Of a DNA stretch of 64,000 nucleotides, positions 12,108-40,721 are shown one piece after another (positions within the stretch are counted from its first letter, which is position 1; each line of letters begins with the position of its first letter). This DNA comes from an uncultured Clostridia bacterium (GTDB lineage: Bacteria > Bacillota > Clostridia > TANB77 > CAG-508). Location of the stretch: contig CAKOTZ010000006.1 of the NCBI GenBank assembly GCA_934120395.1, positions 16,914 to 80,913 on the forward strand, given 5' to 3'. The notes below the pieces were generated by a model. That model had not been told where the DNA came from and searched no databases. It saw only the letters and a program-made list of their open reading frames with translations. Both the position numbers and the translations under genes were made by a program.

Positions 12108-12122
12108 GAGAGGTGAAGTATT

Positions 12123-12482: not shown

Positions 12483-12483
12483 A

Positions 12484-12529: not shown

Positions 12530-12755
12530 TTTTGCATATATAAAAAACAGATAAAATACAAAAAACCCTAAGGTTTTTAAAAACTCGTCATATATTTGTA
12601 ATATTACAGAAAGATAACATTTTGAATAAATGGGTATTTTATTGGCTCTTTATGTTGAAATATACGCAAAAATAAAGTATAATTAAAAAGTAAAGATACA
12701 TAAAAAGCATATAAAAATATTTAATAAACTTGATGAAGGAAAAGGAGAGAAAATA

Positions 12756-13148
12756 ATGAATAAGTTACTAAAAATTATTCCATTAGTAGTATTAGTACTT
12801 ATGCTAGCGTTACCAGTAAAATCTGAAGCATTTCCTACTTTTGATGAAATGCAATCACAAGCTAGTAGTTGGCTACAAAAGGGAAAAGGGCAAGGTGGTA
12901 AAGCTGTAAGTGAAGATGACATTGCTAGCATAATGTTACCAATTGGACAGTTCTTAGTTGGTATAGGAGCTGTAGTTTTAATTTCTGTAACTATTATAAT
13001 GGGTATAAAATATATGACTGCAGAACCAAATGCTAGAGCTAAATTAAAACAACAATTTGTTGGATTAGTAGTTTCAACAATTGTTATATTTGGAGCCTAT
13101 AGTATATGGATAATAGTATATAACTTTATGGATGAACTAGTAAAATAA
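12756..13148 (+). CDS. VirB2/TrbC-like pilin paralog 4
   Basis: Signal peptide ends SEA. Loop GIKYMTAEPNARAKLKQ lies between two TM helices. Confidence 0.6.
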   Translation: MNKLLKIIPLVVLVLMLALPVKSEAFPTFDEMQSQASSWLQKGKGQGGKAVSEDDIASIMLPIGQFLVGIGAVVLISVTIIMGIKYMTAEPNARAKLKQQFVGLVVSTIVIFGAYSIWIIVYNFMDELVK

Positions 13149-13182
13149 TAGAAAGTCATATAAATACAAAGGAGGGAATTAC

Positions 13183-13518
13183 ATGGGAACATACTATATA
13201 CCACGTAATCTAAGAGGAGAAACTAGAATATTGTATATTTTTACTGTAAAGTCATTAATATCAACAGTAGCAGGAGGAGCAGTTGGCTTAATATTTTACC
13301 TTATCTTTTCTGTAATGGGAATAGGAACTGCTGGAATGATTACAATGGGAGTTTGTGCGTTAATTGGATTTTTAATTGGAACAGTAAAAATACCAACAGT
13401 AGCAGGTTTACCATTTACTAAAAAAATAGGTGGAGAGCCACTTAGCGAAATTATAAAAAGATATATCAAATTCAAAATGAACAGAAAAATATATGTTTAT
13501 ACAAAGGAGGAAAAGTAA
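13183..13518 (+). CDS. PrgI/VirB3-like small membrane protein
   Basis: 111 aa. YIPRNLRGETRILYIFTVKSL followed by two TM helices. Sits upstream of VirB4. Confidence 0.55.
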   Translation: MGTYYIPRNLRGETRILYIFTVKSLISTVAGGAVGLIFYLIFSVMGIGTAGMITMGVCALIGFLIGTVKIPTVAGLPFTKKIGGEPLSEIIKRYIKFKMNRKIYVYTKEEK

Positions 13519-13519
13519 T

Positions 13520-14854: not shown

Positions 14855-14876
14855 GCAAAAATAGGAGGAAGGTTTT

Positions 14877-16850: not shown

Positions 16851-16875
16851 AAAATAAGTAATGGAAGGTGTGTTT

Positions 16876-18010
16876 ATGAAAAAAAGTATATCAATTATAT
16901 TAATAGCAATAATAATAATGTTAAACACACTATTTCCGTCAAATGTTTATGCAGACAATGAAAATAAGGAAGAAGAAACAAGCACATCACAGTCGTTATT
17001 TCAAAGCCAAGATTTTGATGAAGTAACAAAAGCACGGATTAAATGATGGAACAAACTTGATAGAACAAGGTCAAGCATCAATAAATGGCAAGAATCTACA
17101 ACTAACTGAAAGTGGCAATGTTTTTAAGACTATTGGAATAGGATTAATACAAGTGCTTGGTGGAATTCCGCAAGCAGTCAATGTGTTTTTGTCATTAGTT
17201 GTACAACCATATTATACAAATAATAGCAATAATGGTGAATTTCAGTGGTTTTCAATTCAAGATTTGATATATGGAAAAATAGGATTATTCGATATAAACT
17301 TTTTTAAAATACAAAATAATAGTAGTGGCGATAATATAAATACAACAATAAAAACACAAGTTAGCCAGTGGTATTATGTTGTAAGAAATATAGCTATGAT
17401 AGGAAGCTTACTGGCATTGGTGTATGTAGGAATACGTATGGCAATATCAACAGTTGCTTCTGACCAAGCAAAATATAAGCAGATGTTATTAATGTGGTTA
17501 AAAAGTTTTGTAGTATTGTTTGTACTTCCATACATATTTATATTTATTTTTTCAATTGGAGATGCTTTTATAGATATTGTAAAGCAGGTTGCTCCAAAAG
17601 AAAATTTGGATACAGTTATATTAGAAGCATTATATGGTGATATGAACAAAAATGATATTACAGCATCATTTTGGGCATTTATAAATTTATGTATGCTAAC
17701 ATATTTTAACGTAAAATTTTTTGGAAGATATTTATTCCGTTTATTAAAAATAGCATTTTTAATTATAATATCTCCATTAATAACTGTTACATATGCACTA
17801 GGAAAAGACAGCGCATATAAGGCATGGTTAGGTTCATTAATTGGAGCAATATTTATGCAAGTTGTACATATAGTAGTGTATTCAATATTTATGTTCTCAA
17901 CAGCAGAAATAGTAAAAGCAGTTCCAATTTTAATGACAGCATTCTTTATGGCAATGGAAAAAGGAGAAAGAATATTTAATTACGTATTTGGATTAGAGGA
18001 ACAAGAATAG
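16876..18010 (+). CDS. VirB6/TrbL-like polytopic membrane protein; frame changes +1 at CGG 17035-17037
   Basis: The signal-peptide ORF (MKKSISIILIAIIIMLNTLFPSNVYA...) joins the TM body via TKA|GLNDGTNLIEQGQASING. Paralogous to the core of 18077..20527 (shared WYYV.RN.A....L..VY.GI.MAISTVA). Confidence 0.65.
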
Positions 18011-18076
18011 AGAAACAATAGATAAAATTAACTTTTGTTAATTAAAAATTTTATCGATTAGAGGTTTGGTGAGAAA

Positions 18077-20527: not shown

Positions 20528-20532
20528 GGCAG

Positions 20533-28814: not shown

Positions 28815-30023
28815 ATTATATTGCTAATATTAGCAGGAGTGAGTTTGTCAATGGTGCTAGGAGAAAATGGTTTAATTAACAAGGCACAGTCAAGTGTAAA
28901 CAAATACAAAGAGAGTAGCGAAAATGAACAAAAGCTATTAAATAGTATAGAAAATTATATGGATTTACAACTAAAATTACCAGGAGAAAAAGTAGATTTA
29001 CCAGATGGATGGAATAAAGATACAGTAGATGCAGTATTAGATGATAAGAAAAACACAATACCAGTACCAAAGAACTTCTATTATGTAGGAGGGAATTTAG
29101 ATAATGGAGTAATTATATCGGACAATTCAGCTGATGCCTATGATGGAAAAGTAGACAAAACAACATGGGAATATACAACAAGCTTAGTAGGCAACCAATT
29201 TGTATGGATACCATGCACAGAATCTGAATATCATAAGACAGAATGGGAAAGTCAAAGTCAATATGTTTATGGTGTATACGATAAATCGGGACCAAGTCAA
29301 GATGAAATAGATAAAGTTAAAAAATATAATGGTTTTTATGTAGGAAGATATGAAGCAGGGTTAGCAGACACAATAAAAGAATATACAGGAAATCAATTAA
29401 GCGATGGTTCAAATAGTCCAGGATATAATGTAGCAGGAATACCAAAGTCAAAGGCAGGAGAATTACCATGGATATTTATTAACCAAACAAATAGTAAAGC
29501 AAATGCAGAAAAAATGTATGAAAAAAATACTTGTGTAACAAGTGGACTAGTAACAGGAACACAATGGGACGTAATGTTAAACAAATTTATTGGAACAACA
29601 AATGCTAATAGAGTAACTTTTACAGAAGCAGACATGAAAAATTCAAGTAAATGGGGAAATTGTTATAATAATGACTTGATATATACAGGAAGGTCAGCAA
29701 CATTATTTAAGAATGGAAGTAGTGAGTATATAAGCCCATGGGGAGAAAAACAAATAAATGCGGAAACAAAAACAAATACATGTACCGAATATACAACTGG
29801 TGCCAGTAAGTCTACAGAAGCATATCATATTTATGATGTAGCAGGGAATGTATGGGAATGGACGGAGGAGGTCGGACAAGGCACTGCATATCGCGTCATT
29901 CGTGGTGGTTCTTGTGGGAATGATCAAGATACTAGTCCAGCGTGTTGGCGTTATTCTACTCTCAAAGATTATGAGGTGTACTATCACATCGGATTTCGTA
30001 CTGTATTGTATATAAAAAATTAG
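28761..30023 (+). CDS. pilin-like N-terminus plus FGE/C-type-lectin-fold protein (DGR-target paralog with diverged VR)
   Basis: 420 aa. N-terminus NKAITLIALIITIIILLILAGVSLSM. C-terminus YDVAGNVWEWTEE...RVIRGGSC...HIGFRTVLY. Confidence 0.8.
   Translation: MNLKSNKAITLIALIITIIILLILAGVSLSMVLGENGLINKAQSSVNKYKESSENEQKLLNSIENYMDLQLKLPGEKVDLPDGWNKDTVDAVLDDKKNTIPVPKNFYYVGGNLDNGVIISDNSADAYDGKVDKTTWEYTTSLVGNQFVWIPCTESEYHKTEWESQSQYVYGVYDKSGPSQDEIDKVKKYNGFYVGRYEAGLADTIKEYTGNQLSDGSNSPGYNVAGIPKSKAGELPWIFINQTNSKANAEKMYEKNTCVTSGLVTGTQWDVMLNKFIGTTNANRVTFTEADMKNSSKWGNCYNNDLIYTGRSATLFKNGSSEYISPWGEKQINAETKTNTCTEYTTGASKSTEAYHIYDVAGNVWEWTEEVGQGTAYRVIRGGSCGNDQDTSPACWRYSTLKDYEVYYHIGFRTVLYIKN
29893..30007 (+). other. 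VR-like segment not matching the local TR by adenine-only changes
   Basis: Aligns ungapped to the TR over 115 nt but differs at many C/G/T positions. Confidence 0.7.
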
Positions 30024-30148
30024 TAAATATTTCCTTCAAACACTAGACAAAATAAAAAAGTTAATATAAAATAAACACAAATATAATGTCATATAGTAGC
30101 ATAATATAGAATAATTAGGAAAATTCAAAAGAGAAGAGGAGAAAAAAC

Positions 30149-31414
30149 ATGAACAACAAATCAGCAAAGGGTATAACCCTTGTTGCCCTAATTATTACTA
30201 TAATCATTCTACTTATTTTGGCTGGAGTAAGTTTGTCAATGATATTAGGAGACAATGGGCTAATAAAAAAAGCACAAGCTAGTGTTGATGCATACCAACA
30301 AGCGGCATTAAATGAACAAAATTTACTAGATAGCATAGAAAGCTATATGGGAAATTACGGTTTACCAGAAAACACACCAACCACACCTGCAGGAACACAC
30401 GTAAAACCACCAGCAAAATGGTTAGGAACAATTGTAGATGCAGTGGCAGATGGAAAAGGCAACACATTTCCAGTGCCAAAAAGTTTTTACTACGTGGGTG
30501 GAGATTACACAAACGGAGTAATCATATCAGACGACCCAGCAGATGCATACGATGGAACAACAGATAAAACAACATGGGAATATACAACAAGTTTAGTAGG
30601 AAACCAATTTGTATGGATACCATGTACACCAGCAGAATATATAAAAACAAGTTGGGGCATGGTATATGGAGGCTATGATGCAGAAAGCGGAGCAGGAGCT
30701 GAAATGATGCAAGTAGCCAAATATGGAGGATTCTATGTAGGAAGATATGAAGCCGGCTTAGCAGACACAATAGCAGAATATACAGGAAATCAAATATCTT
30801 CTAGTTCAATTTATAATCTAGCAGGAATACCAAAATCAAAGGCAGGAGAATTACCATGGATATTTATCAGCCAAACAAATAGTAAGAAAAGTGCAGAAAA
30901 CATGTACAATACAGACGAAAAACATTCAGACTATGTAACAAGTGGACTAATAACAGGAACACAATGGGATGTAATGTTAAACAGATTTATTGGAACAACA
31001 AATGCTAATGGAGTAACTTTTACAGAAGCAGACATGAAAAATTCAAGTAAATGGGGTAATTATGCAAGTAGTGCAACAACATATACAGGAAGATCTGCAA
31101 CTCTATTTCAAAGTGGAAGTAATTGGTATATAAGTCCATGGGGAGCAAAGCAAACAGATGCAAAAACAGCAACATATACCGAATATACAACAGGAGCAAG
31201 TAAAAAAACAGAAGCATATCACACTTATGACATAGCAGGAAATGTATGGGAGTGGACGGAAGAAGTCGGACAAGGCACTGCATATCGCGTCCTTCGTGGC
31301 GGTTCTTGCGATAATGCTTCAGGTTCTTACCCAGCCTGCTGCCGCCATGGTAACAACTCTGTTTCCTTTGTGTACTATCTCGTCGGGTTCCGTGCCGTAC
31401 TTTACATCAAGTAG
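30149..31414 (+). CDS. DGR variable protein: pilin-like N-terminus plus FGE/C-type-lectin fold
   Basis: 421 aa. N-terminus AKGITLVALIITIIILLILAGVSLSM. C-terminus YDIAGNVWEWTEE...RVLRGGSCDNASGSYPACCRHGNNSVSFVYYLVGFRAVLY. Confidence 0.88.
   Translation: MNNKSAKGITLVALIITIIILLILAGVSLSMILGDNGLIKKAQASVDAYQQAALNEQNLLDSIESYMGNYGLPENTPTTPAGTHVKPPAKWLGTIVDAVADGKGNTFPVPKSFYYVGGDYTNGVIISDDPADAYDGTTDKTTWEYTTSLVGNQFVWIPCTPAEYIKTSWGMVYGGYDAESGAGAEMMQVAKYGGFYVGRYEAGLADTIAEYTGNQISSSSIYNLAGIPKSKAGELPWIFISQTNSKKSAENMYNTDEKHSDYVTSGLITGTQWDVMLNRFIGTTNANGVTFTEADMKNSSKWGNYASSATTYTGRSATLFQSGSNWYISPWGAKQTDAKTATYTEYTTGASKKTEAYHTYDIAGNVWEWTEEVGQGTAYRVLRGGSCDNASGSYPACCRHGNNSVSFVYYLVGFRAVLYIK
31287..31401 (+). other. 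DGR variable region (VR)
   Basis: 115 nt versus the TR: 12 mismatches, all at TR adenines. Confidence 0.9.
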
Positions 31415-31525
31415 ACCTGAACGCTTGTTAGCGATGCACATTGACCTTGTTTAATGATAGAATACGAGTAGATAGTTTGAAGAGGTGACATTATACATAC
31501 GATAAAATAGTAGAGGTTTATTAGT

Positions 31526-31891
31526 ATGGCGGATAATAAAAAAGAATTGATATTAATTCCAAAGTCAGAAAAATATATTCAATATATGATTGAAGTAATT
31601 ATGAAGTTGCCTCGTACAGAGAAATTTAGTATTGGAACCGAATATAAAACAGCAATGTATAAAATGCTTGAAAATATTATGCTTTTAAGCAAGGTGCGAG
31701 CAGAGGAAAAAATAAATTACATCAATTATATAGATGCTGAACTTAATGTTCAAAGAATTTTCTTGAGAATAATGTATAAAAATCAGTGGATAGACGAGAA
31801 ACGTTTTAAAGTAGCTTCAGATTTAATATATGAATTAGGAAAATTAGTAGGAGGTCTTTTAAAATTCTATGGCCAGAACATTAAGAAATAA
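31526..31891 (+). CDS. avd: DGR accessory variability determinant (Avd-like four-helix bundle)
   Basis: 121 aa, helical and basic, immediately upstream of and overlapping the RT. Confidence 0.75.
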   Translation: MADNKKELILIPKSEKYIQYMIEVIMKLPRTEKFSIGTEYKTAMYKMLENIMLLSKVRAEEKINYINYIDAELNVQRIFLRIMYKNQWIDEKRFKVASDLIYELGKLVGGLLKFYGQNIKK

Positions 31892-32885
31892 ATTTGATGA
31901 GTATTTAACTTACGATAATCTAATGCGAGCTCATTTAGAGAGTAGGAAAAATAAGCGTTATAAAAAAGATATCATTTTGTTTGAAATTAAACAAGAAGAT
32001 TATATTAGATATTTATTGGAAGAACTAAAAAATGGTACATATAAGCATGGAGGCTATTCAATCTTTTATGTAAGAGAGCCTAAATTGAGAAAAGTAGAAA
32101 AATCAAGATATATAGATAGGGTCGTGCATAGATGGTTAGTAGATAATTTTTTCATTGATCTATATGTACCAACTTTTATATCAACAAGTTATGCTTGTTT
32201 AAAAGACAGGGGAACGCACAAAGCAGTATGTGATGTGCAAAAAGCAATGCAGCATTGCCTAAGAATATGGAATGAATACTATATATTAAAAATGGATGTT
32301 GCTAAATACTTTCAAAGCATTGATAAAAATATTTTGTTTAATATAATAAAGAAAAAAATTAAAGATAAAAAGGTACTATGGTTGGTAGAACAAATTATTT
32401 ATTCAAATAAGGGAGAAACGGGTATAGCCATAGGAAACTATACTTCACAGATATTTGCAAATTTATATTTAAATGAAGTAGATCAATATATAAAAAAAGA
32501 ATTGAAGGTTAAATATTATTTTAGGTATATGGATGATTCGATAATTCTTGTAAAAACTAAAAATGAGGCAAAATTAATATTAGAAAAAATAAGACAATTC
32601 TTAAGGGAAAATTTAAAATTAGAGTTAAACTCTAAAACTCAAATATTTAAGAATAAACAAGGTGTTAATTTTTGTGGATACAAAATTAATGAATACAGAA
32701 TGAAGGTAAGAGACAGAGGAAAGAAGAAACTTAAAAAAAAGATAAAAATATTAAAAGAAAATGTGAAAAATGGTAAAATGAGTAGTAAAGAGGCTAAGTT
32801 ATACCTGTGTGGGCATGTTGGATATATTAAATATGCAGATGTTCACAATTTAACTAGCAAGCTGTTTTATTTGCCGGAAGAATAA
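31869..32885 (+). CDS. DGR reverse transcriptase
   Basis: 338 aa with IAIGNYTSQIFANLYL (the DGR-type [I/L]GxxxSQ motif) and FRYMDDSIIL. Confidence 0.92.
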   Translation: MARTLRNKFDEYLTYDNLMRAHLESRKNKRYKKDIILFEIKQEDYIRYLLEELKNGTYKHGGYSIFYVREPKLRKVEKSRYIDRVVHRWLVDNFFIDLYVPTFISTSYACLKDRGTHKAVCDVQKAMQHCLRIWNEYYILKMDVAKYFQSIDKNILFNIIKKKIKDKKVLWLVEQIIYSNKGETGIAIGNYTSQIFANLYLNEVDQYIKKELKVKYYFRYMDDSIILVKTKNEAKLILEKIRQFLRENLKLELNSKTQIFKNKQGVNFCGYKINEYRMKVRDRGKKKLKKKIKILKENVKNGKMSSKEAKLYLCGHVGYIKYADVHNLTSKLFYLPEE

Positions 32886-32914
32886 TAATAACATAGGGAT
32901 AAATCAGATGGCGG

Positions 32915-33029
32915 GCGTCATTCGTGGCGGTTCTTGCAATAATGCTTCAGGTTCTAACCCAGCATGCTACCGCAATGGTAACAACTCTGTTTCCAATGTG
33001 AACTATAACATCGGGTTCCGTGCCGTACT
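32915..33029 (+). other. DGR template repeat (TR)
   Basis: Encodes VIRGGSCNNASGSNPACYRNGNNSVSNVNYNIGFRAVL. Rich in AAY codons. Non-coding position downstream of the RT. Confidence 0.9.
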
Positions 33030-33193
33030 CTAATATTATTCGAGATTGTGTGTTTTACGGAATGCATACAGTGAAGTATTAGATATTAAAGAGGTTTATT
33101 CCTTCCTACTTTAGGTAAAAATGAATCAATAAAACATGTATTGGTAGTAAATTTACGAAGATACGTGTTTTATGCTATATATAAGGTGAAAAT

Positions 33194-33472
33194 ATGAATA
33201 AGTGTGTAATAAGTGGAAAAGTATTAGAAGAGATAAAGTTTGATTTCATATATAATAGTAAAAAACATGTATCTATAGCGAAATGTCCTATAAAATTAAA
33301 CAATGATTCAGTATTAAACGTTTTTGGACTAGACGATGAAGCTGATTATATGTATCGACATATAAAAGCGGGAGATATTATTGTTTGCTATGGAAAAATT
33401 AGAAGAATGGATGAAAAATTAGAAGTTGAAGTAATAGAAATAGAAAAAGTAAAGTTCAAAACGAGTCTATAA
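33194..33472 (+). CDS. hypothetical protein (92 aa, beta-rich)
   Basis: ORF with a plausible start. No family recognised. Confidence 0.35.
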   Translation: MNKCVISGKVLEEIKFDFIYNSKKHVSIAKCPIKLNNDSVLNVFGLDDEADYMYRHIKAGDIIVCYGKIRRMDEKLEVEVIEIEKVKFKTSL

Positions 33473-33484: not shown

Positions 33485-33892
33485 TTAATTATAAATTTCT
33501 TGTAATTGTTTTTTAATCTGGTCTAGAAACTCAAAAGATTCTTTAAAACTAATATTATTCATGTCAATGGCCATTATAGACTGAATAATATTTTGTGTTT
33601 TCATGTTGTTTAAATAATCGGAGTAATTTTCAATTTTTGAATAGTTTAAATCAATAACTTCAAAAGGAATATTAAAGTTGCTTAGCTGTTTTGTATAGTA
33701 TTCTAATCTTTTTTGAGGAAATCCACATTTAGTAACGCTGTCGTTTAAATTTGTTATTTTAAAATCAAAAAGTTCTGAAATTTTTGTGGCATCTTCGTTT
33801 AGTGCAATATAAAAAATGCCACTTTTAAATAAATATATTGTTGTATTATCCTTATTCTTTAATTTTAAGTATTCTGTATATAATTTGCTCAT
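33485..33892 (-). CDS. stand-alone MutS domain I-like protein
   Basis: 135 aa from the ATG after aggggg. LYTEYLKLKNKDNTTIYLFKSGIFYIALNEDATKISELFDFKIT...CGFP mirrors the MutS N-terminal mismatch-binding domain. Confidence 0.5.
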   Translation of the reverse strand: MSKLYTEYLKLKNKDNTTIYLFKSGIFYIALNEDATKISELFDFKITNLNDSVTKCGFPQKRLEYYTKQLSNFNIPFEVIDLNYSKIENYSDYLNNMKTQNIIQSIMAIDMNNISFKESFEFLDQIKKQLQEIYN

Positions 33893-34121: not shown

Positions 34122-34364
34122 ATGACGACTACAATTCAAAAATGGGGAAATAGTCAAGGAGTTAGAATACCAAAAGTAATATTAGATACTGTTAATTGGA
34201 AAGAAAATGAACAAATAACAATAGTTGTCGAGAATGGGAAGGTTATAATGGAAAAGGCTAAAGGAAAAAGAAGAAATATAAAAGAATTATTTGAAAACTA
34301 TAAAGACGAATATGAACCAATTGAAGTGGATTGGGGAGAAATGAAGGGAAGAGAAGTATGGTAA
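34122..34364 (+). CDS. mazE: MazE/AbrB-fold antitoxin
   Basis: TIQKWGNSQGVRIPKVILD (SpoVT/AbrB swapped hairpin). Overlaps the toxin start (ATGGTAA). Confidence 0.8.
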   Translation: MTTTIQKWGNSQGVRIPKVILDTVNWKENEQITIVVENGKVIMEKAKGKRRNIKELFENYKDEYEPIEVDWGEMKGREVW

Positions 34365-34687
34365 AACAAGGTACAATTATAAAAATAAATTTTAATCCTC
34401 AATCAGGGCATGAACAGGCTGGATATAGACCTGCAATTGTAATAAGCAATGATATATTTAATGAAAAAACAAAATTATCAATAGTTTGTCCTATTACAAA
34501 TACTGATAATAATTTTCCATTGCATGTTTCATTAGATGAGAGAACAAAGACTACAGGCGTAATATTATGCGAACATATAAGGGCCTTAGACTTAGAAAGT
34601 AGAACATATCAAGAAGTGGAAAAAGTACCAAAGGATATTTTAAATCATGTAATAGATATTGTTTATGCAGAAATAGAAGAATTATAA
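34358..34687 (+). CDS. mazF: MazF/PemK endoribonuclease toxin
   Basis: GTIIKINFNPQSGHEQAGYRPAIVISND...CPITN...LDLESR. Confidence 0.85.
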   Translation: MVKQGTIIKINFNPQSGHEQAGYRPAIVISNDIFNEKTKLSIVCPITNTDNNFPLHVSLDERTKTTGVILCEHIRALDLESRTYQEVEKVPKDILNHVIDIVYAEIEEL

Positions 34688-34744: not shown

Positions 34745-35996
34745 ATGAAAAAAAGTTTTTGCAAATTATTAGTTATTACATTAATAGTAATATTTTTAGT
34801 CCAGATAAGTGTGTATGCAAATGAAGAAGAACATGAAAATATAGAAATACAAGAAATATGGAACGAAATAAAAGAAACTGATGCAAATATTGTAAAAGAA
34901 CCTACAATAAATTCAAAGGCAGCAGTTGTATTGGATAGAAAATCAAAAACAGTAATTTTTGATAAAAATGCAAATCAAAAAAGAGCAATGGCGTCTACAA
35001 CAAAAATTATGACTGCCATTTTAGTGCTAGAAAAAGGTAATTTAAATGATTTGATTGAGGTATCACAAAAAGCTGCAAATACAGGTGGATCAAGATTAGG
35101 GTTAAAAAAAGGAGATAAAATAACATTAAATGATTTACTTTATGGATTAATGTTACGCTCTCGGAAATGATGCGGCAGTACAAATTGCTGAGCATATTGG
35201 AGGCAGTGTAGAGGAATTTGCACAAATGATGAATCAAAAAGCAAAAGAATTAAATTTGGTAAATACGCATTTTGTAACGCCACATGGATTAGATAATACT
35301 GACCACTATACAACTCCATACGAATTAGCCATATTAACAGATTATGCACTAGAAAATAGTAAATTTGCTAAAATTGTAAATACAAATACATGCACAATAA
35401 CCATTAATAATTCTCCAATAGTTTTGAATAATACAAATGAATTATTAGGTACTTTAAATGGTGTAAATGGTGTAAAAACAGGTTTTACCAATAATGCAGG
35501 AAGATGTCTTGTAACTTCTACAACGCGAAATGGATGGCAAATTGTTGTAGTTGTATTAGGTGCAGATACTAAAAGAAATAGAACAAAAGATAGCATTAGT
35601 TTGATAGAGTATACTTTTAAAAATTATGAAATTGTAAATATAAAGGATAAGTTAAAAAGAAGTTTTAATAATGAAAAGAAAAAACAGGAAGCTTTAATAG
35701 AAATTGAAAAAGGAAAAAATGATAAAATTATATTAGAATTAGGGGAGATATCTAATACAGAATATCCTATAAAAAATAGTGAATTAAAAAATTTAACTTG
35801 CAATATAGATGTAGTTCATTACATAAAAGCACCAATTAAGGAAGGCACTGTGGTAGGAAATTTGGAAGTGATGATTGGTGATAAAAATATTTGCAATGTA
35901 AATATTCTTTGTAAGTATACTGTTGATAAGAAGGGGGTGTGGGATTATTTTTCGGATTTAGTTTGTAATATAGGGAAGTATATATTGGAAATTTAA
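34745..35996 (+). CDS. D-alanyl-D-alanine carboxypeptidase (S11 PBP5-type); frame changes +1 at CGG 35162-35164
   Basis: Signal peptide. SxxK box (ASTTKIM), SxN box restored only after the shift (LRS|GNDAAVQIAE), and KTG box (VKTGFT). Confidence 0.85.
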
Positions 35997-36060: not shown

Positions 36061-36135
36061 TGGAGGCGCCAGTCGGAATCGAACCGACGAATCAGAGTTT
36101 TGCAGACTCGTGCCTTACCGCTTGGCTATGGCGCC
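36061..36135 (-). tRNA. tRNA-Cys (GCA)
   Basis: Reverse complement GGCGCCATAGCCAAGCGGTAAGGCACGAGTCTGCAAAACTCTGATTCGTCGGTTCGATTCCGACTGGCGCCTCCA. 7-nt anticodon loop CTGCAAA, encoded CCA. Confidence 0.9.
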
Positions 36136-36206
36136 ATTAATATAATGTATGTTAAGAACTAATAAAAGATGAATAAAAAATAAAAAATTATTCATCTTTT
36201 TTGTAG

Positions 36207-36282
36207 TGGAGCGGGAAACGGGGCTCAAACCCGCGACCTCTGCCTTGGCAAGGCAGCGCTCTATCAACTGAGCTATTCCCGC
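36207..36282 (-). tRNA. tRNA-Gly (GCC)
   Basis: Reverse complement GCGGGAATAGCTCAGTTGATAGAGCGCTGCCTTGCCAAGGCAGAGGTCGCGGGTTTGAGCCCCGTTTCCCGCTCCA. Canonical 7-nt loop TTGCCAA. Confidence 0.9.
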
Positions 36283-36528: not shown

Positions 36529-36593
36529 ATGCTATTGACTTAAGATAAAAACATAGTAAAATAATAATAGTTTTGAATAAGGAAGGTAAGAAT

Positions 36594-39500
36594 ATGAAAC
36601 GAAGTAAAGTGTTATTAGGACTAGTTATGACATTAGTAATGTTTGCTATTCCGGCATCTGCTTTTGCAACAACTTCTCATGAACTTGGAATTGTACAAAA
36701 TAGAGAAGATGGATATGCTTACAGAATAGGAGTAGGTTCTGGAGGAGATGCAAGAAATTTAGATTTATGGAAAATTGTGGAATACTTAAATGGGGGAGTA
36801 ACGTGGAATAACGCAATTTATTGTATTAAGGGTGGACCTGGTTTTGGAGGAACAATTACAGAACCAACGGATAAACGTACTTATGATGTAACTTATGATA
36901 TGAAAAAAGTAGGAGATATTCCTTCTAATTATAAGAGTACGTTACCAAGTGATACTGCAAATACAGTAACTCTTAATATAGGTGGTGTAGAAACAGAAGT
37001 ATCTTATACAAATTATAATGCAGTTTTATGGATTTTAGATAATATGTATCTACCTAAACATCCAGATGAAACACAAAGACAAGAAATGAGAGATTCTTTG
37101 TTAAAAGCAGCATTTAAAGCTCAATTAGAAGATGCAGATTTAGTACCTCCATTTGAAATTAGTCAAATAAATTTAACAGATTCAGATATTGAGGTAATAC
37201 AACAACTTGCTATTTGGCATTTTACAAATCCAGATGATATATATAATGTAGGAAATACTTTGCCAGCAATTCAAATTAGCGAAAAAGATAGTACAACTAA
37301 TTATAACGCTTATAGTATGGAGTCTAAAAGACAAGAAGATGCACAAACTTTATATACATACTTAGTTAATAATGCTATGATAAATGCAAATAAATATGGT
37401 ACAGGTGAAAATAGACATTTAACAGCACCAGTACAATTACTAAATACAAATTTATCATCAACATATATTGATGATGATGTGGTTGTTGGACCATTTAAAA
37501 TAGAAAAAGAATCTGAATTAGCTTATACCTTAAGACCATCAGTATTAAATCAAAACAATGAAGCTATTACTAATTACACTTTATATAAAAAAGGAACTGA
37601 AGGAAAGCCTGTTAAAGCAGGTGAAACTGAAACAATAGAAAGCTTAGTTGGACAAGAGTTTTACATAGCAGTTCCAAAAACATCAAATGTAACAGAAGTA
37701 ACATTAAAATTAATGGTTGATTATTATGAATCAGAAGCAAACTTCTGGACTGTTAGTGGTACAAATAGTGAACAACCAGTTGTGATGGTAGAAAAGAAAT
37801 TACAAACAGCAGAACAAAAAGTAGGATTAAACTATAATTTTGATTTAGCATTAAGAAAATTTATTACAGCAGTTAATAAAACAGCTGTAACTGATCGTGT
37901 ACCACAGGTAAAAGTAAGTGAAAACGGAAAAATAACTTATGAACATAAAAAAACACCTCTTGTTGTAGAGTCTGGAGACCTTGTAACATATACAATTCGT
38001 ATTTATAACGAAGGATTAGTTTCTGGATTTGCACAAGAAGTAAAAGATGATATTCCAGCTGGTTTAAAATTCTTACCAAATAATGAAACAAATAAGAAAT
38101 ATGGATGGAAATTGACAGAAGATGGTAAGAGTATTGTAACTGATTATCTAAAGAAAGATGATAATAATACAAATTTATTAAAAGCATTTGATTCAAAAAA
38201 CATGACTGTACCAGATTATAAAGATGTAAATGTTGTGTTTGAAGTTACAGAACCAAATTCTTCAAAGAATACAATTATAAATACAGCAGAAATTAGTGAT
38301 GATGCAGATGAACATGGAAAACCAATAGATGATATAGATTCAACTCCAAATAATAATAAAGATGGAGAAGATGATATAGACAAAGAATATATCAAATTAA
38401 AAGAATTTGATTTAGCATTAAGAAAATTCATTACAGCAGTTAATGATAACAAAATAGAAGAAAGAGTACCACAAGTAAAAGTTGATGAAAATGGAAAAAT
38501 TACATATACACATCCAAAAACACCAGTAGCTGTTGCAAATGGGGATATCGTAGTTTATACAATTAGAATATATAATGAAGGACAGACAGATGGCTATGCA
38601 AAAGAAATTACAGATGATATACCTGAAGGAACAGAATTTATAATTGATAATGAAATAAACGTACAATATCGTTGGAAATTATCAGCAGATACAAAATCTG
38701 TTACAACAGATTACTTATCAATGGAAAGAGACGAAGATAACTTATTAAAAGCTTTCAATAAAGACAAAATGACCACACCAGAATATAAAGATGTAAAGAT
38801 TGCTTTAAAAGTTACAGAATCAAATGCATCAAAGAATACAATTATAAATACAGCAGAAATTAGTGATGATGCAGATAAAAATGGAAAACCAGTAGAGGAT
38901 ATAGATTCGACTCCAGGAAATAATAAAGATGGAGAAGATGATATAGACAAAGAATATATCAAATTAAAAGAATTTGATTTAGCATTAAGAAAATTTATTA
39001 CATCAGTTAATGACAAGGAAGTAACAACAAGAATACCACAAGTAAAAGTGGACGAGAATGGAAAAATTACTTATGAACACACAAAAGAGCCAGTTTTAGT
39101 TGCAAATTCAGATATTGTAACATATACAATTAGAATATATAATGAAGGTACAATTAACGGATATGCAGAAAGTGTAAGAGATGATGTACCAGATGGATTA
39201 GAGTTCTTGCCAGATAATGAAACAAATAAGAAATATGGATGGAAATTATCAGAAGATGGAAAATCAATTACAACAGATTATCTATCAAAAGATAACAGCA
39301 AAGATAATTTACTTAAAGCATTTGACAATGTTGCTATGAAAACACCAGATTACAAAGATGTAAAAGTTGCATTCAAAGTAACAGATAAAATATTGCCAAA
39401 AGATAGAGTTTTGATAAATACAGCAGAAATTAATGATGATACAGACGAAAATGGAAAACCAGTAGATGATATAGATTCAACACCAGGAAACAATAAAGAT

Positions 39501-40721
39501 GGTGAAGATGACATTGATAAGGAATATGTAAAAGTACAATATTTTGATTTGGCATTAAGAAAATTCATTACAGCAGTTAATGATACTGAAGTAACAACAA
39601 GAATACCACAAGTAAGTGTAGATGAGAATGGAAAAGTTACTTATACACATACAAAAGAACCAGTATTAGTTGCAAATTCAAATATTGTAACATATACAAT
39701 TAGAGTATTTAATGAAGGTACAATGGACGGCTATGCAGAAAGCGTAAGAGACGATGTACCAGATGGATTAGAGTTCTTAGCAGATAATGAAATTAACAAA
39801 CAATATGGATGGAAATTATCAGAAGATGGAAAAACAATTACAACAGATTATCTATCAAAAGATAAGGCTGAGGATAATATAATCAAAGCATTTGATAGAG
39901 AAAAAATGGATACACCAGCATACAAAGATGTAAAGGTTGCATTTAAAGTAACAGAGGAAATGTTACCAGGAGACAGAATTTTAATAAATACAGCAGAAAT
40001 CAATAAAGATAGAAATGAAACAGATACACCAGATATAGATTCAACACCAGGAAACAATAAAGATGGTGAAGATGATATTGATAAAGAGTATGTAAAAGTA
40101 CAATATTTTGATTTATCTTTATTAAAATGGGTTAACAAAGTAATTGTTACTGAAGATGGTGAAACAACTGAAAGAGATACAGGACATACTGGTTTAGAAA
40201 ATCCAGAACCAATTGTAAAAGTTGAATTAGATAGAAAGAAATTAAAAAACACAACAGTTAAATTTGAATATACAATTAAAATTACAAATGAAGGTGAAAT
40301 CGCTGGATATGCTAAGGAAATTAGCGATTATATTCCAGATGGTTTAGAGTTTATCCAAGCTGACAATCCAAACTGGACAGAAGCAGATGGAAAGGTAACA
40401 ACTAGAGGATTAGAGGGAACTTTATTACAACCAGGTGAAAGTGCAGATGTTAAAATTATATTAACATGGATTAATAATTCAGAAAACATGGGAGTTAAGA
40501 CAAACGTTGCCGAAATTAGCGAAGATTATAATGAATTTGGAGCAAAGGATATAGATTCAACACCAAACAATAAGGTTGAAGGCGAAGATGATATTGACGA
40601 TGCACCAGTAATGCTTTCAATTAAAACTGGTGGAGCAACAGTAGTTTACTTTGGATTAATTGGAATTGTATTAGCAACAATTGCAGGTGGAATTATATTG
40701 ATTAAACGTTATGTATTGTAA
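36594..40721 (+). CDS. giant repeat-containing surface protein (DUF11/conserved-repeat type) with C-terminal anchor
   Basis: Signal peptide MKRSKVLLGLVMTLVMFAIPASAFA. Five ~190-aa repeats (FDLALRKFIT..YTIRIYNEG..DIDSTPGNNKDGEDDIDKEY). C-terminus SIKTGGATVVYFGLIGIVLATIAGGIILIKRYVL. Confidence 0.8.
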   Translation: MKRSKVLLGLVMTLVMFAIPASAFATTSHELGIVQNREDGYAYRIGVGSGGDARNLDLWKIVEYLNGGVTWNNAIYCIKGGPGFGGTITEPTDKRTYDVTYDMKKVGDIPSNYKSTLPSDTANTVTLNIGGVETEVSYTNYNAVLWILDNMYLPKHPDETQRQEMRDSLLKAAFKAQLEDADLVPPFEISQINLTDSDIEVIQQLAIWHFTNPDDIYNVGNTLPAIQISEKDSTTNYNAYSMESKRQEDAQTLYTYLVNNAMINANKYGTGENRHLTAPVQLLNTNLSSTYIDDDVVVGPFKIEKESELAYTLRPSVLNQNNEAITNYTLYKKGTEGKPVKAGETETIESLVGQEFYIAVPKTSNVTEVTLKLMVDYYESEANFWTVSGTNSEQPVVMVEKKLQTAEQKVGLNYNFDLALRKFITAVNKTAVTDRVPQVKVSENGKITYEHKKTPLVVESGDLVTYTIRIYNEGLVSGFAQEVKDDIPAGLKFLPNNETNKKYGWKLTEDGKSIVTDYLKKDDNNTNLLKAFDSKNMTVPDYKDVNVVFEVTEPNSSKNTIINTAEISDDADEHGKPIDDIDSTPNNNKDGEDDIDKEYIKLKEFDLALRKFITAVNDNKIEERVPQVKVDENGKITYTHPKTPVAVANGDIVVYTIRIYNEGQTDGYAKEITDDIPEGTEFIIDNEINVQYRWKLSADTKSVTTDYLSMERDEDNLLKAFNKDKMTTPEYKDVKIALKVTESNASKNTIINTAEISDDADKNGKPVEDIDSTPGNNKDGEDDIDKEYIKLKEFDLALRKFITSVNDKEVTTRIPQVKVDENGKITYEHTKEPVLVANSDIVTYTIRIYNEGTINGYAESVRDDVPDGLEFLPDNETNKKYGWKLSEDGKSITTDYLSKDNSKDNLLKAFDNVAMKTPDYKDVKVAFKVTDKILPKDRVLINTAEINDDTDENGKPVDDIDSTPGNNKDGEDDIDKEYVKVQYFDLALRKFITAVNDTEVTTRIPQVSVDENGKVTYTHTKEPVLVANSNIVTYTIRVFNEGTMDGYAESVRDDVPDGLEFLADNEINKQYGWKLSEDGKTITTDYLSKDKAEDNIIKAFDREKMDTPAYKDVKVAFKVTEEMLPGDRILINTAEINKDRNETDTPDIDSTPGNNKDGEDDIDKEYVKVQYFDLSLLKWVNKVIVTEDGETTERDTGHTGLENPEPIVKVELDRKKLKNTTVKFEYTIKITNEGEIAGYAKEISDYIPDGLEFIQADNPNWTEADGKVTTRGLEGTLLQPGESADVKIILTWINNSENMGVKTNVAEISEDYNEFGAKDIDSTPNNKVEGEDDIDDAPVMLSIKTGGATVVYFGLIGIVLATIAGGIILIKRYVL
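37838..40106 (+). repeat. four tandem coding repeats of about 567 bp (a fifth, diverged unit follows)
   Basis: Unit starts (tttgatttagcattaagaaaatt) at 37838, 38406, 38973 and 39543. The diverged unit starts at 40107. Confidence 0.85.

What the first reader, a model, noticed from the sequence alone, without database searches (positions are those of the whole stretch)
31287..33029. Complete DGR with adenine-only TR/VR divergence; TR lies downstream of the RT
TR 32915-33029 and VR 31287-31401 align ungapped over 115 nt. I count 12 mismatches, every one at a TR adenine (12 of 26 A).

Codon changes: att>ctt, aat>gat, aac>tac, gca>gcc, tac>tgc, aat>cat, aat>ttt, aac>tac, aac>ctc, atc>gtc.

The TR is AAY-rich (NN..N..Y.N.NN...N.N.N). 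The 3' 18 nt (cgggttccgtgccgtact) are invariant, as expected for an IMH-like boundary. The RT has IGNYTSQ and YMDD, and an Avd-like gene overlaps it. Gene order is target, avd, RT, TR.
Basis: partly seen in the sequence, partly recalled or inferred. Interest (0 to 1): 0.72.

Follow-up and report, generated by a model that had tools for sequence, protein, structure and literature searches.

The report
Active diversity-generating retroelement in gut Clostridia
This is a genuine and apparently active diversity-generating retroelement of an uncultured human-gut Clostridia bacterium, which rewrites the tip of a surface lectin-like protein at template adenines; the kind of element is well known, but the locus also links an orphan Rfam RNA (RT-14) and a small SSB-like gene to the element's machinery.

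Summary

Population data show activity. In strain-level contigs from human gut metagenomes the TR is identical in 8 assemblies. Seven full-length VR copies give six distinct VR sequences that differ by 13-22 of 115 nt between most pairs, almost only at TR-A positions, while 491 nt of flank differ by 0-3 nt.

Three parts were not in the finding:
- Rfam RT-14 RNA (33028-33173, 122.9 bits) directly follows the TR. It pairs with a box upstream of the TR (32895-32905) in an 11-bp duplex that covaries across 48 related DGRs. This matches the spacer RNA / "cPRT Stop" layout of the Bordetella DGR.
- A MutS-domain-I gene (MSL, a known accessory class) lies at 33485-33892.
- A 92-aa SSB-like OB-fold gene (33194-33472) is present in 69 of 71 assessable related cassettes.

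Gene order avd-RT-TR is a described architecture. Verdict: a new member of a known kind.

The parts
30149..31414 (+). Target (variable protein) gene, 421 aa. It has an N-terminal hydrophobic, pilin-like helix, a middle domain, and a C-terminal FGE-type C-type-lectin fold with the VR at its end.
31287..31401 (+). Variable region (VR), the last 38 codons of the target gene before LYIK-stop.
   Evidence: 115-nt ungapped match to the TR with 12 mismatches, all at TR A. Among strain-level relatives it differs almost only at TR-A positions.
31383..31401 (+). IMH-like 3' boundary of the VR: a G+C-rich stretch identical to the TR end and never mutagenised.
   Evidence: Identical to TR 33011-33029. In 54 related TR/VR pairs, A's in the last 14 nt before the terminal CU are mutated 0 of 80 times, against 88 of 159 at positions -20 to -15. 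Perfect homology ends at the same CT in 51 of 54 pairs, followed by a constant TR-C / VR-T difference.
31417..31441 (+). Conserved non-coding motif just after the target stop codon (ACCTGAACGCTTGTTAGCGATGCAC). It is a candidate target-site element; its function is unknown.
   Evidence: Conserved in the alignment of VR-downstream regions. A strict form of the motif occurs 25 times in 81 loci: 23 within 40 nt after a detected VR end, and the other 2 at contig starts just upstream of avd. It is absent after the decayed paralogue. It does not form a significant hairpin.
31526..31891 (+). avd (accessory variability determinant), 121 aa.
   Evidence: Pfam bAvd 3.2e-17, 63.4 bits against a cut-off of 40. 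NCBIfam DivGenRetAVD 75 bits, just under its cut-off of 80. PHROG 'Avd protein of DGR' 5e-18.
31869..32885 (+). DGR reverse transcriptase, 338 aa.
   Evidence: Pfam RVT_1. Best PDB relative is bRT 8ub7_A, E 1.8e-45, with IGxxxSQ and YMDD. PHROG reverse transcriptase 3e-103.
32895..32905 (+). Upstream box AGGGAUAAAUC: the 5' strand of a long-range RNA duplex that closes the TR into a loop (like the avd strand of the 'cPRT Stop' duplex).
   Evidence: The MFE fold pairs it with 33093-33103. Over 48 related DGRs the 11 pairs are 99.8% paired and 8 of them show changes on both sides.
32915..33029 (+). Template repeat (TR): 26 A's, nine AAY codons.
   Evidence: Identical in 8 independent metagenome assemblies.
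33028..33173 (+). RT-14 RNA (Rfam RF02921), here read as the spacer (Sp) RNA of the DGR. Its elements are: hairpin 33030-33082, whose inner 9-bp stem is capped by a UACG tetraloop at 33056-33059; conserved linker AUAUUAAAGA 33083-33092; the 3' strand of the long-range duplex at 33093-33103; a small hairpin at 33105-33115; an A-run at 33117-33121; and a long 3' hairpin at 33129-33173.
   Evidence: cmscan 122.9 bits against a gathering score of 48.1, full length. In 16 of 16 related loci tested, RT-14 starts exactly at the CUCU that ends the TR. The helices covary.
33194..33472 (+). SSB-like OB-fold protein, 92 aa with no acidic tail: a candidate DGR accessory gene.
   Evidence: Present in 69 of 71 assessable cassettes of this RT clade. 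20 of 39 family members hit Pfam SSB. Model pLDDT 90; the Foldseek top 50 are SSB, PriB or RPA OB domains with TM about 0.8.
33485..33892 (-). MSL (MutS-like) accessory gene, a MutS-domain-I-only protein. It is 135 aa from the start codon that homologues share; the longest ORF runs to 33922.
   Evidence: Pfam MutS_I 1.5e-11, 45 bits against a cut-off of 20.6. Present in 58 of 71 related cassettes. Gene calls in strain relatives give 135 aa. MSL is described by Wu et al. 2018.
28761..30023 (+). Paralogue of the target gene (68% identity). It is not a current target of this TR.
   Evidence: BLASTP. Its VR-equivalent, 29893-30007, has 39 mismatches to the TR, 27 of them at non-A positions. Its 3' end lacks the IMH identity and the downstream motif. 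It is absent from strain L081.
27919..27991 (+). Truncated N-terminal remnant of a third paralogue (MNLKSNKAITLVALIITIFLLPMK*), with a copy of the paralogue's upstream region.
   Evidence: Sequence. Self-BLAST: 27892-27981 matches 28736-28824 at 87% identity.

Best explanation
The locus is a complete chromosomal diversity-generating retroelement (DGR). Its gene order is target - avd - RT - TR - spacer RNA (RT-14) - SSB-like gene, with an MSL gene on the opposite strand.

Proposed mechanism, step by step:
1. A transcript spanning about 32890-33175 (upstream box, TR and RT-14) folds so that the box AGGGAUAAAUC pairs with GGUUUAUUCCU inside RT-14. This loops out the TR. The duplex is shown by covariation.
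2. RT and Avd bind this RNA, with the UACG-capped hairpin next to the TR as the likely Avd-binding element. This step is inferred by analogy with the Bordetella bRT-Avd-RNA complex.
3. cDNA synthesis is primed in cis from the conserved linker (AUAUUAAAGAG), which lies just 5' of the duplex strand, and starts at the CUCU end of the TR. It runs 5'-ward through the TR and stops at the long-range duplex. This step is inferred, and the priming nucleotide is not resolved.
4. The RT misincorporates opposite template adenines. This is shown indirectly by the A-only pattern here, in 54 related elements and in natural strain variants.
5. The mutagenised cDNA replaces the VR, with a sharp 3' transfer boundary about 15 nt before the end of the repeat. 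The boundary is shown by the mutation statistics; the integration chemistry is unknown.
6. The result is diversification of 13 residues on the C-type-lectin surface of a membrane-anchored, probably surface-exposed protein. My arithmetic from the TR codons gives about 1e13 possible peptides.
7. The SSB-like and MSL proteins probably handle the single-stranded cDNA and the mismatched heteroduplex. This is inferred from linkage and fold only.
For: - TR/VR pair: 115 nt, 12 of 12 mismatches at TR A, P about 1.6e-9.
- RT closest to bRT, with the catalytic and adenine-mutagenesis residues conserved. Avd confirmed. Target C-terminal fold matches DGR variable proteins.
- Population test. The TR is identical in 8 assemblies. 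Seven full-length VR copies give six distinct sequences (L083 and L085 are identical). For the window's TR allele, 14 polymorphic positions are at TR-A and 2 are not. For the second allele, 20 are at TR-A and none are not. Apart from the identical pair and the near-identical pair L081/L082 (2 differences), VRs differ at 13-22 of 115 nt, while 491 nt of flank differ at 0-3 nt.
- The second TR allele carries 4 non-A changes, and all of its VRs carry the same 4 changes. That shows TR-to-VR information flow.
- Clade statistics over 54 TR/VR pairs: about 44% of A's upstream of position -15 are mutated, 0 of 80 A's in the last 14 nt are mutated, and non-A mismatches are 32 of 4238.
- RT-14: 122.9 bits directly 3' of the TR, and found at the TR end in 16 of 16 loci, including those where the TR is upstream of the RT.
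- Long-range duplex: 11 bp, 99.8% paired, 8 pairs with double changes, 0 of 500 shuffles reach the observed values, and slid controls give 36-55% paired against 92.7%.
- The element order (hairpin with UNCG loop, linker, duplex strand, short hairpin, A-run, long hairpin) matches that reported for the Bordetella spacer RNA.
Against: - No transcript, cDNA or within-sample read data were available, so activity in this particular strain is inferred from differences between strains.
- Two non-A VR differences exist in relatives: C5T in L081, and G75T in L081 and L082.
- No G+C-rich inverted repeat or significant hairpin follows the VR, unlike the Bordetella and Legionella elements. Only 34% of DGRs have one.
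- The primer:template duplex could not be pinned down. The only complementarity (CUCUAAUA with UAUUAAAGAG) is invariant, so it cannot be tested by covariation, and it competes with the P1 stem of RT-14 and with the first pair of the long-range duplex.
- NCBIfam's Avd model scores 75, just below its cut-off of 80.
- The roles of the SSB-like and MSL proteins rest on linkage and fold alone.
Confidence: 0.95

Rival explanations
1. The element is a fossil in this strain. The TR/VR pair and the ORFs are relics of past activity, and the VR is no longer being rewritten.
For: No expression or within-sample data were available. A neighbouring paralogue (28761-30023) and a truncated remnant (27919-27991) show that target copies in this locus do decay.
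Against: All ORFs (target, avd, RT, SSB-like, MSL) are intact. The TR and RT-14 are identical or near-identical across strains. VRs differ by 13-22 nt between strains whose flanks differ by 0-3 nt in 491 nt, which requires very recent retrohoming in the lineage. The window VR has no non-A difference from its TR.
Confidence: 0.08
2. RT-14 is not part of the retrohoming machinery. It is instead a 5' leader or regulatory RNA of the downstream SSB-like gene, or an independent small RNA.
For: In most loci the SSB-like ORF begins within about 0-130 nt of the RT-14 3' end. Weinberg et al. 2017 left the role of most RT motifs open and suggested retrons for many of them.
Against: Where the TR lies upstream of the RT (L030, L035, L047, L052-54), RT-14 stays attached to the TR, while the SSB-like gene sits 1.6-1.8 kb away, after the RT. 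A conserved 'single-stranded' block of RT-14 pairs, with covariation, with a box on the far side of the TR. A leader function does not explain this. The block order mirrors the Bordetella spacer RNA.
Confidence: 0.07
3. The upstream paralogue (28761-30023) is a second, active target of the same TR, making this a two-target DGR.
For: It is a full-length member of the same family (68% identity), has the same C-terminal length and framework (RGGSC...PAC.R...GFR.VLYIK), and lies in tandem. [quoted passage not shown]
Against: Its VR-equivalent has 39 mismatches to the TR, and 27 of them are at non-A positions. The last 18 nt differ at 5 positions. The post-VR motif is missing. No TR in any fetched locus matches it with an A-biased pattern. 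It is absent from a strain with 98% identical flanks.
Confidence: 0.03

Closest known systems
Bordetella phage BPP-1 DGR (mtd-avd-TR-brt), including the bRT-Avd-RNA complex of Handa et al. (bioRxiv 10.1101/2023.10.23.563531)
   Same: The RT is homologous end to end (E 1.8e-45), with K29, F66, R74, I181, G182, Q187 and the YMDD aspartates conserved. An Avd is present. The VR lies at the C-terminus of a C-type-lectin-fold protein. Mismatches are A-only. The 3' boundary is G+C-rich and not mutagenised. The RNA downstream of the TR has the same order of elements: a UNCG-capped hairpin next to the TR, a strand that pairs with sequence upstream of the TR, a short hairpin followed by adenosines, then a long hairpin.
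   Different: Here the TR and spacer RNA lie after the RT instead of between avd and brt, so the upstream strand of the long-range duplex sits in the RT-TR intergenic region, not inside avd. The element is chromosomal, not phage-borne. No inverted repeat follows the VR. It carries extra MSL and SSB-like genes. The spacer RNA belongs to a different Rfam family (RT-14, not RT-10). The target is an FGE-type lectin fold rather than Mtd's trimeric form.
MSL-containing and avd-RT-TR DGRs in the survey of Wu et al. 2018 (PMC5758913): architectures B2 and D
   Same: The core order avd-RT-TR is architecture B2. A small MutS-domain-I protein (112-283 aa in their set) that co-occurs with avd defines architecture D. 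IMH/IMH* boundaries are predicted just after the mutagenised region.
   Different: An SSB-like OB-fold gene is not among their four accessory classes (avd, HRDC, MSL, CH1), and 'OB-fold' does not occur in their main text. I could not check their supplementary lists of 'potential accessory genes', because no supplements are held.
Treponema denticola TvpA and Thermus aquaticus TaqVP (DGR variable proteins with solved structures)
   Different: Sequence identity is only 17-18%. The window protein has a pilin-like hydrophobic N-terminal helix plus a long helical stalk (residues 7-69 of the model), not a lipoprotein signal. The Treponema element uses HRDC rather than MSL.
Rfam RT-14 RNA (RF02921) and the RT-1 to RT-19 motifs of Weinberg et al. 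2017 (PMC5737381)
   Same: Full-length match at 122.9 bits. The motif was defined by its proximity to RT genes, and the authors speculated that motifs other than RT-10 might belong to DGRs.
   Different: The Rfam model treats the block UAUUAAAGAGGUUUAUUCCUUCC as unpaired. Here part of it pairs with a box on the far side of the TR, outside the model. The family had no assigned function.
Bacteroides gut DGRs (Macadangdang et al., bioRxiv 10.1101/2024.11.15.621889)
   Same: They are gut-commensal, chromosomal DGRs with Avd and Msl that diversify C-terminal ligand-binding residues of cell-surface proteins.
   Different: Those targets are type V pilus tip adhesins, and several of the elements ride on ICEs. 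Here the target family is a different Clostridia protein. The adjacent T4SS-like genes are not linked to the DGR in any of 80 related loci.

Membership tests
Diversity-generating retroelement (DGR) | Reverse transcriptase of the DGR clade (motif [I/V/L]GxxxSQ in place of the QGxxxSP of group II intron and retron RTs; closest relatives are DGR RTs) | tested here: met
   IGNYTSQ and YMDD are present. The best PDB relative is bRT, E 1.8e-45, against 2.7e-19 for a group II intron RT. All NCBIfam hits to group II, retron, Drt and Abi RT models fall far below their cut-offs. No formal phylogeny was built.
Diversity-generating retroelement (DGR) | A TR/VR repeat pair whose differences are (almost) only at TR adenines | tested here: met
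   12 of 12 mismatches are at TR A over 115 nt, P about 1.6e-9.
Diversity-generating retroelement (DGR) | VR inside a protein-coding target, typically at the C-terminus of a C-type-lectin or Ig fold, with TR adenines at codon positions 1 and 2 (AAY codons) | tested here: met
Diversity-generating retroelement (DGR) | Accessory protein Avd (present in about 74% of DGRs) | tested here: met
   Pfam bAvd 63.4 bits (cut-off 40), PHROG Avd 5e-18, NCBIfam 75 bits (cut-off 80).
Diversity-generating retroelement (DGR) | IMH / IMH* boundary: a non-mutagenised, G+C-rich 3' end of the repeat, followed by sequence that distinguishes the VR from the TR | tested here: met
   19 identical nt; A113 is unchanged. 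In 54 related pairs, 0 of 80 A's in the last 14 nt are mutated, and perfect homology ends at the same CT in 51 of 54 pairs, followed by a constant TR-C / VR-T difference.
Diversity-generating retroelement (DGR) | G+C-rich inverted repeat (cruciform) downstream of the VR, as in the Bordetella and Legionella elements (found in 34% of DGRs, so not universal) | tested here: not met
   No inverted repeat was found with a seed of 6. The DNA fold has z = 0.04. A conserved non-palindromic motif lies there instead.
Diversity-generating retroelement (DGR) | Ongoing mutagenic retrohoming: VR variants restricted to TR-A positions while the TR is constant | tested here: met
   Between-strain data show 6 distinct VR sequences among 7 full-length copies, 34 polymorphic positions at TR-A against 2 at non-A, and near-identical flanks. 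Within-sample reads could not be tested with these tools.
DGR spacer RNA architecture (Handa et al.: Avd-binding stem-loop, template:primer duplex, cPRT Stop duplex with stem-loop and adenosines, RT-binding stem) | Duplex between sequence upstream of the TR and sequence downstream of the TR (average 13 bp), followed by a short stem-loop and adenosines | tested here: met
   An 11-bp duplex, 32895-32905 with 33093-33103, 99.8% paired with 8 covarying pairs in 48 DGRs. It is followed by hairpin 33105-33115 and AAAAA at 33117-33121.
DGR spacer RNA architecture (Handa et al.: Avd-binding stem-loop, template:primer duplex, cPRT Stop duplex with stem-loop and adenosines, RT-binding stem) | Stem-loop of about 9-11 bp capped by a tetraloop immediately downstream of the TR (Avd-binding) | tested here: met
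   A 9-bp stem, 33047-33055 with 33060-33068, with a UACG loop; 7 of its 9 pairs show changes on both sides. Binding to Avd itself cannot be tested here.
DGR spacer RNA architecture (Handa et al.: Avd-binding stem-loop, template:primer duplex, cPRT Stop duplex with stem-loop and adenosines, RT-binding stem) | Template:primer duplex between the TR 3' end and the spacer, with a defined priming nucleotide | tested here: inconclusive
   The only candidate is CUCU(AAUA) 33028-33035 with (UAUUA)AAGAG 33084-33093. Both strands are invariant in the clade, so covariation says nothing, and the pairing overlaps P1 and the long-range duplex.
Rfam RT-14 (RF02921) | Covariance-model score at or above the curated gathering score over the full model | tested here: met
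   122.9 bits against 48.1, model positions 1-144 of 144.
MSL (MutS-like) DGR accessory protein | Small protein (112-283 aa) homologous to MutS mismatch-recognition domain I, encoded in an avd-containing DGR cassette | tested here: met
   MutS_I 45 bits (cut-off 20.6), 135-145 aa. Present in 58 of 71 related cassettes.
Bacterial SSB family (PF00436) | OB-fold of the SSB type at Pfam's threshold, and usually a C-terminal acidic tail | tested here: inconclusive
   The window protein itself does not hit Pfam SSB; it hits only the generic OB model at 22 bits, below that model's cut-off of 27. 20 of 39 homologues hit SSB at E<0.01. The fold match to SSB domains is strong: TM about 0.8, probability 1.00. 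There is no acidic tail. It is therefore SSB-like in fold, but membership is not established.
Type IV pilin / pseudopilin (prepilin N-terminal methylation motif) | G-[FILMY]-[ST]-L-x-E motif with Glu at +5, and N_methyl at Pfam's threshold | tested here: not met
   N_methyl scores 15.9 bits against 21.2. The sequence is KG-ITLVAL, with Ala in place of Glu5, across the family. The N-terminus resembles a pilin helix but fails the motif.

The most novel reading that the evidence does not exclude
In this clade of Clostridia DGRs, the 80-100-aa SSB-like OB-fold protein encoded right after the TR-spacer RNA is a dedicated retrohoming factor. It would coat or deliver the adenine-mutagenised single-stranded cDNA and work together with the MutS-domain-I protein MSL. 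If so, it would be a fifth class of DGR accessory gene. RT-14 would then be the first Rfam 'RT motif' other than RT-10 with a concrete assigned role, as a DGR spacer/priming RNA whose conserved 'unpaired' block clamps the template by pairing across it.
Probability: 0.4. Interest if true: 0.55.

Novelty: new member of a known kind. Interest (0 to 1): 0.38.

Why it matters
DGRs are the only known natural system for targeted protein hypermutation in bacteria, and they are being developed as tools for directed evolution. This locus adds little as yet another DGR, but it is a clean and demonstrably active example from uncultured human-gut Clostridia, with strain-level evidence of recent diversification.

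The comparative data collected here do three useful things:
- They give an orphan Rfam family (RT-14) a concrete role, and extend the Bordetella 'template clamped by a long-range duplex' model to Firmicutes elements whose TR lies after the RT.
- They define a sharp 3' boundary of mutagenesis, 15 nt before the repeat end, in 54 elements.
- They flag a near-universal SSB-like gene in this clade (69 of 71 cassettes), plus MSL, as testable candidates for the least understood step of retrohoming: how the cDNA is handled and integrated.

Tried and rejected
- Megablast of 28700-33200 against the plasmid and phage collections found nothing.
- An exact-pattern scan for the TR/VR, with N at every TR adenine, found nothing in JGI metagenome contigs or in IMG/VR.
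- An exact look-up of the RT protein was not on record. The Avd and SSB-like look-ups then succeeded.
- A second VR in the window: none. The paralogue was rejected as a target.
- A hairpin or cruciform downstream of the VR: not found.
- Link to the T4SS-like gene cluster at 11289-26290, on the idea that the DGR diversifies a mating adhesin on a conjugative element. Rejected: 0 of 80 related DGR loci carry homologues of those genes next to the DGR, and the window's first 10 kb are housekeeping genes.
- Type IV pilin identity of the target N-terminus: fails the motif and the Pfam threshold.
- Promoter and terminator scans gave no more sites than shuffled sequence, so the transcription unit is unresolved.
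- The primer:template duplex and the priming nucleotide could not be resolved.
- The supplements of Wu et al. 2018 are not held, so I could not check whether their 'PAG' genes include the SSB-like gene.

Full report
OBSERVATION. Each is an adenine in the TR, so 12 of the 26 TR adenines are changed. If 12 differences were placed at random among 115 positions, the chance that all hit A's is 1.6e-9. Similarity ends abruptly on both sides, and no third copy exists on either strand of the window. The TR encodes VIRGGSCNNASGSNPACYRNGNNSVSNVNYNIGFRAV with nine AAY codons, and 22 of the 26 A's are at codon positions 1 or 2. The last 19 nt are identical in the TR and the VR.

THE GENES. The VR ends a 421-aa ORF (30149-31414). 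It is followed by a 121-aa ORF (31526-31891) and, overlapping that by 23 nt, a 338-aa ORF (31869-32885). The TR starts 30 nt after that ORF's stop.
- The 121-aa protein is Avd: Pfam bAvd 63.4 bits against a cut-off of 40, PHROG 'Avd protein of DGR' 5e-18, and NCBIfam DivGenRetAVD 75 bits, just under its cut-off of 80.
- The 338-aa protein is a reverse transcriptase. Its best relative among all solved structures is chain 8ub7_A, aligned end to end at E 1.8e-45. The next best is a group II intron RT at 2.7e-19.
- The residue numbers in that alignment (I181, G182, Q187, D215/D216, F66, R74, K29) coincide with those given for Bordetella phage bRT in Handa et al.. The chain is therefore bRT, and all of those residues are conserved in the window protein.
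- The N-terminus (KGITLVALIITIIILLILAGV) resembles a pilin helix but lacks Glu5 and fails the N_methyl threshold. I treat it as a membrane anchor.

IS IT ACTIVE? The exact RT sequence is not on record elsewhere. The exact Avd and the exact downstream 92-aa protein are, in 17 and 10 contigs from human gut metagenomes (Hadza and other cohorts).
- In these contigs the TR is 100% identical to the window's in 8 assemblies.
- A second TR allele with four non-A changes (T33C, T38G, C39A, C80T) occurs in two assemblies, and every VR linked to that allele carries the same four changes.
- Seven full-length VR copies give six distinct sequences. L083 and L085 are identical, and L081 and L082 differ at only 2 positions.
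- With the window's TR allele, the VRs are polymorphic at 14 TR-A positions and 2 non-A positions. With the second allele, they are polymorphic at 20 TR-A positions and no non-A position.
- Apart from the two close pairs just named, VRs differ at 13-22 of 115 nt, while the adjacent 491 nt (intergenic region plus avd) differ at 0-3 nt.
- In all, 22 of the 27 A positions (the 26 of the window's TR plus the extra A at position 39 of the second allele) are changed in at least one VR. A113, in the invariant tail, is never changed.
It also shows transfer of non-A information from TR to VR.

A scan of the window against Rfam finds RT-14 (RF02921) at 33028-33173 on the + strand. The match is full length, at 122.9 bits against a gathering score of 48.1, and it begins at the last two bases of the TR. 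Weinberg et al. 2017 defined RT-1 to RT-19 only by their proximity to RT genes. They assigned RT-10 to the Bordetella DGR and speculated that other RT motifs might belong to DGRs.

I fetched 80 loci encoding the closest RT homologues (59-73% identity), all from gut or rumen Clostridia-type MAGs. A self-BLAST screen found an A-biased TR/VR pair in 55 of them. In most, the TR lies 20-100 nt after the RT stop, as in the window. An RT-14-like sequence directly follows the TR in every case. Rfam confirmed RT-14 in 16 of 16 loci tested, each match starting exactly at the C of the TR-terminal CUCU, including the loci where the TR is upstream of the RT.

The minimum-free-energy fold of 32870-33185 pairs a box just upstream of the TR (AGGGAUAAAUC, 32895-32905) with GGUUUAUUCCU (33093-33103). 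That segment lies inside a block the Rfam model treats as unpaired. I aligned 48 distinct elements, joining the upstream box, the TR tail and the downstream 165 nt (A2; the row labels after L039 are shifted by one, which does not affect the counts). On that alignment the 11-bp duplex is paired in 99.8% of cells, and 8 of its 11 pairs change on both sides. The whole structure exceeds all 500 shuffles, and register-shifted controls give 36-55% paired against 92.7%. The 9-bp stem capped by UACG, the small hairpin and the long 3' hairpin also covary. The low score for the outer stem P1 comes from a 1-nt alignment shift in 15 rows.

Read 5' to 3', the elements are:
- a UNCG-capped hairpin next to the TR;
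- a conserved linker (AUAUUAAAGA);
- the strand that pairs with sequence upstream of the TR;
- a short hairpin, then an A-run;
- a long hairpin.
This is the order that Handa et al. describe for the Bordetella spacer RNA: Avd-binding stem-loop, primer strand, cPRT Stop duplex, stem-loop plus A-minor adenosines, thumb ring and RT-binding stem. They also predicted such duplexes in 207 of 278 Avd-containing DGRs. I therefore read RT-14 as the spacer RNA of this DGR clade.

The priming site itself is unresolved. The only complementarity between the TR end and the linker (CUCUAAUA with UAUUAAAGAG) is invariant, and it overlaps other helices.

BOUNDARIES. In 54 distinct related TR/VR pairs, perfect homology ends at the same dinucleotide in 51 (CU of CUCUAAUA in the TR; CUUUAYAU in the VR), and a constant C-to-U difference follows. 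This is an IMH/IMH*-like distinction. A's in the last 14 nt before that point are never changed (0 of 80), those at -20 to -15 are changed 88 of 159 times, and non-A positions differ at 32 of 4238.

Part of the conserved sequence after the VR is coding (LYIK-stop). Beyond the stop codon lies a conserved non-coding motif (window 31417-31441). A strict form of it occurs 25 times in 81 loci, always directly after a VR: 23 cases after a detected VR, and 2 at contig starts just upstream of avd. It does not form a significant hairpin, and there is no G+C-rich inverted repeat. Such a repeat is found in only 34% of DGRs.

ACCESSORY GENES AND CONTEXT. Two small genes lie downstream of RT-14.
- A 92-aa ORF (33194-33472) matches Pfam's generic OB-fold model only below its cut-off.
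- On the opposite strand is a MutS-domain-I-only protein (33485-33892; 45 bits against a cut-off of 20.6). The latter is the 'MSL' accessory class of Wu et al. 2018, also noted in Bacteroides DGRs.
A profile search of the 80 loci finds the OB gene in 69 and MSL in 58 of the 71 loci with enough downstream sequence. The OB gene follows RT-14, or follows the RT when the TR is upstream. 20 of 39 family members hit Pfam SSB. A model with pLDDT 90 matches bacterial SSB, PriB or RPA OB domains at TM about 0.8. The family is small, with 145 cluster representatives among 1.84 billion. No paper in the held library connects DGRs with an SSB or OB-fold accessory protein. I could not inspect Wu et al.'s supplementary 'potential accessory genes'.

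The T4SS-like cluster upstream (11289-26290) is not linked to the DGR in any related locus, so it is a coincidental neighbour. The flanking genes are chromosomal housekeeping genes, and the plasmid and phage collections have no similar DNA.

PARALOGUE. ORF 28761-30023 is 68% identical to the target. Its VR-equivalent has 39 mismatches to the TR, 27 of them at non-A positions. It lacks the boundary identity and the post-VR motif, matches no TR in any fetched locus, and is missing from strain L081, whose flanks are 98% identical. A 24-codon remnant of a further copy lies at 27919-27991. These are decayed or never-targeted family members.

COMPARISON AND VERDICT. Every defining DGR feature I could test is met, except the optional inverted repeat. 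The gene order avd-RT-TR is architecture B2, and the presence of MSL is architecture D, in the published survey. The element is therefore a new member of a known kind, and 'TR downstream of the RT' is not unusual. Beyond confirmation, the worthwhile results are the assignment of RT-14 as a DGR spacer RNA with a covarying template-clamping duplex, the sharp mutagenesis boundary, and the near-universal SSB-like gene in this clade. From the TR codons I calculate 13 diversifiable residues (nine AAY, ATT, TAC, TAT, ATC). That gives about 15^9 x 4^4, or roughly 1e13 peptides; this is my own arithmetic from the sequence.

Noticed in passing
window 33194-33472 (+): A 92-aa SSB-like OB-fold protein without an acidic tail lies directly after the TR/RT-14 RNA. 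Homologues are present in 69 of 71 assessable cassettes of this DGR clade. It is not among the published DGR accessory classes as far as the held literature shows.
   Followed up: yes
window 33485-33892 (-): A MutS-domain-I-only protein (the MSL accessory class) is present in 58 of 71 related cassettes, on either side of the core genes and in either orientation.
   Followed up: yes
L030:2050-4220 (CAMXJY010000020.1, uncultured Clostridium sp. MAG): Six tandem units of [upstream box - ~135-nt TR-like segment - RT-14] lie between the target gene and avd. All share the same 5' and 3' repeat ends but differ in the middle, including at non-A positions and by indels. Only one unit matches the local VR. 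This may be an array of alternative templates. L078 has two such units.
   Followed up: partly
window 31417-31441 (+): A conserved non-coding motif (ACTGAR-N-CTG-N-GCGATRCA) lies immediately after the target stop codon. In the related loci it is found only directly downstream of VRs, and it is absent after the decayed paralogue. It does not form a hairpin, and its function is unknown.
   Followed up: partly
window 27732-30023: This is a tandem family of target-gene copies in different states: a 24-codon N-terminal remnant (27919-27991), a full paralogue (28761-30023), and duplicated upstream segments (27732-27773 matches 28378-28419; 27809-27902 matches 28601-28693). A strain-level relative (L081) lacks the full paralogue.
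   Followed up: partly
L083, L084, L085, L087, L089 (human gut metagenome contigs): A second TR allele differs from the window's at four non-A positions, and its VRs carry the same four changes. One of these changes creates a new A (position 39), which is itself mutated in one VR (L087).
   Followed up: yes
window 11289-26290 (+): A chromosomal T4SS-like cluster contains four small VirB2/TrbC-type pilin paralogues in a row, a fifth T4SS_pilin domain in a 317-aa protein, PrgI, a TraG/VirB4-like ATPase, a pLS20_p028-like membrane protein, an 878-aa cell-wall hydrolase and a CAP/SH3 protein. No relaxase or integrase turned up among the ORFs I scanned. It is not linked to the DGR in other genomes.
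   Followed up: partly
window 34122-34687 and 34745-35996 (+): A MazE/MazF toxin-antitoxin pair is followed by a D-Ala-D-Ala carboxypeptidase (Peptidase_S11) split into two ORFs of 141 and 256 aa. The same split is seen in strain relatives L081 and L091, so it is not a sequencing error peculiar to this window.
   Followed up: no
window 36573-40721 (+): A 1382-aa surface protein has a thioester (TED) domain and four DUF11 repeats built from near-identical ~190-aa modules. It lies next to tRNA-Cys and tRNA-Gly (36061-36282, minus strand).
   Followed up: no
window 26404-27756 (+): An AAA_14/DUF4143 ATPase gene lies immediately upstream of the target-gene family. A second gene with the same domains lies downstream in strain L081. 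It is not linked to the DGR in other genomes (1 of 80).
   Followed up: no
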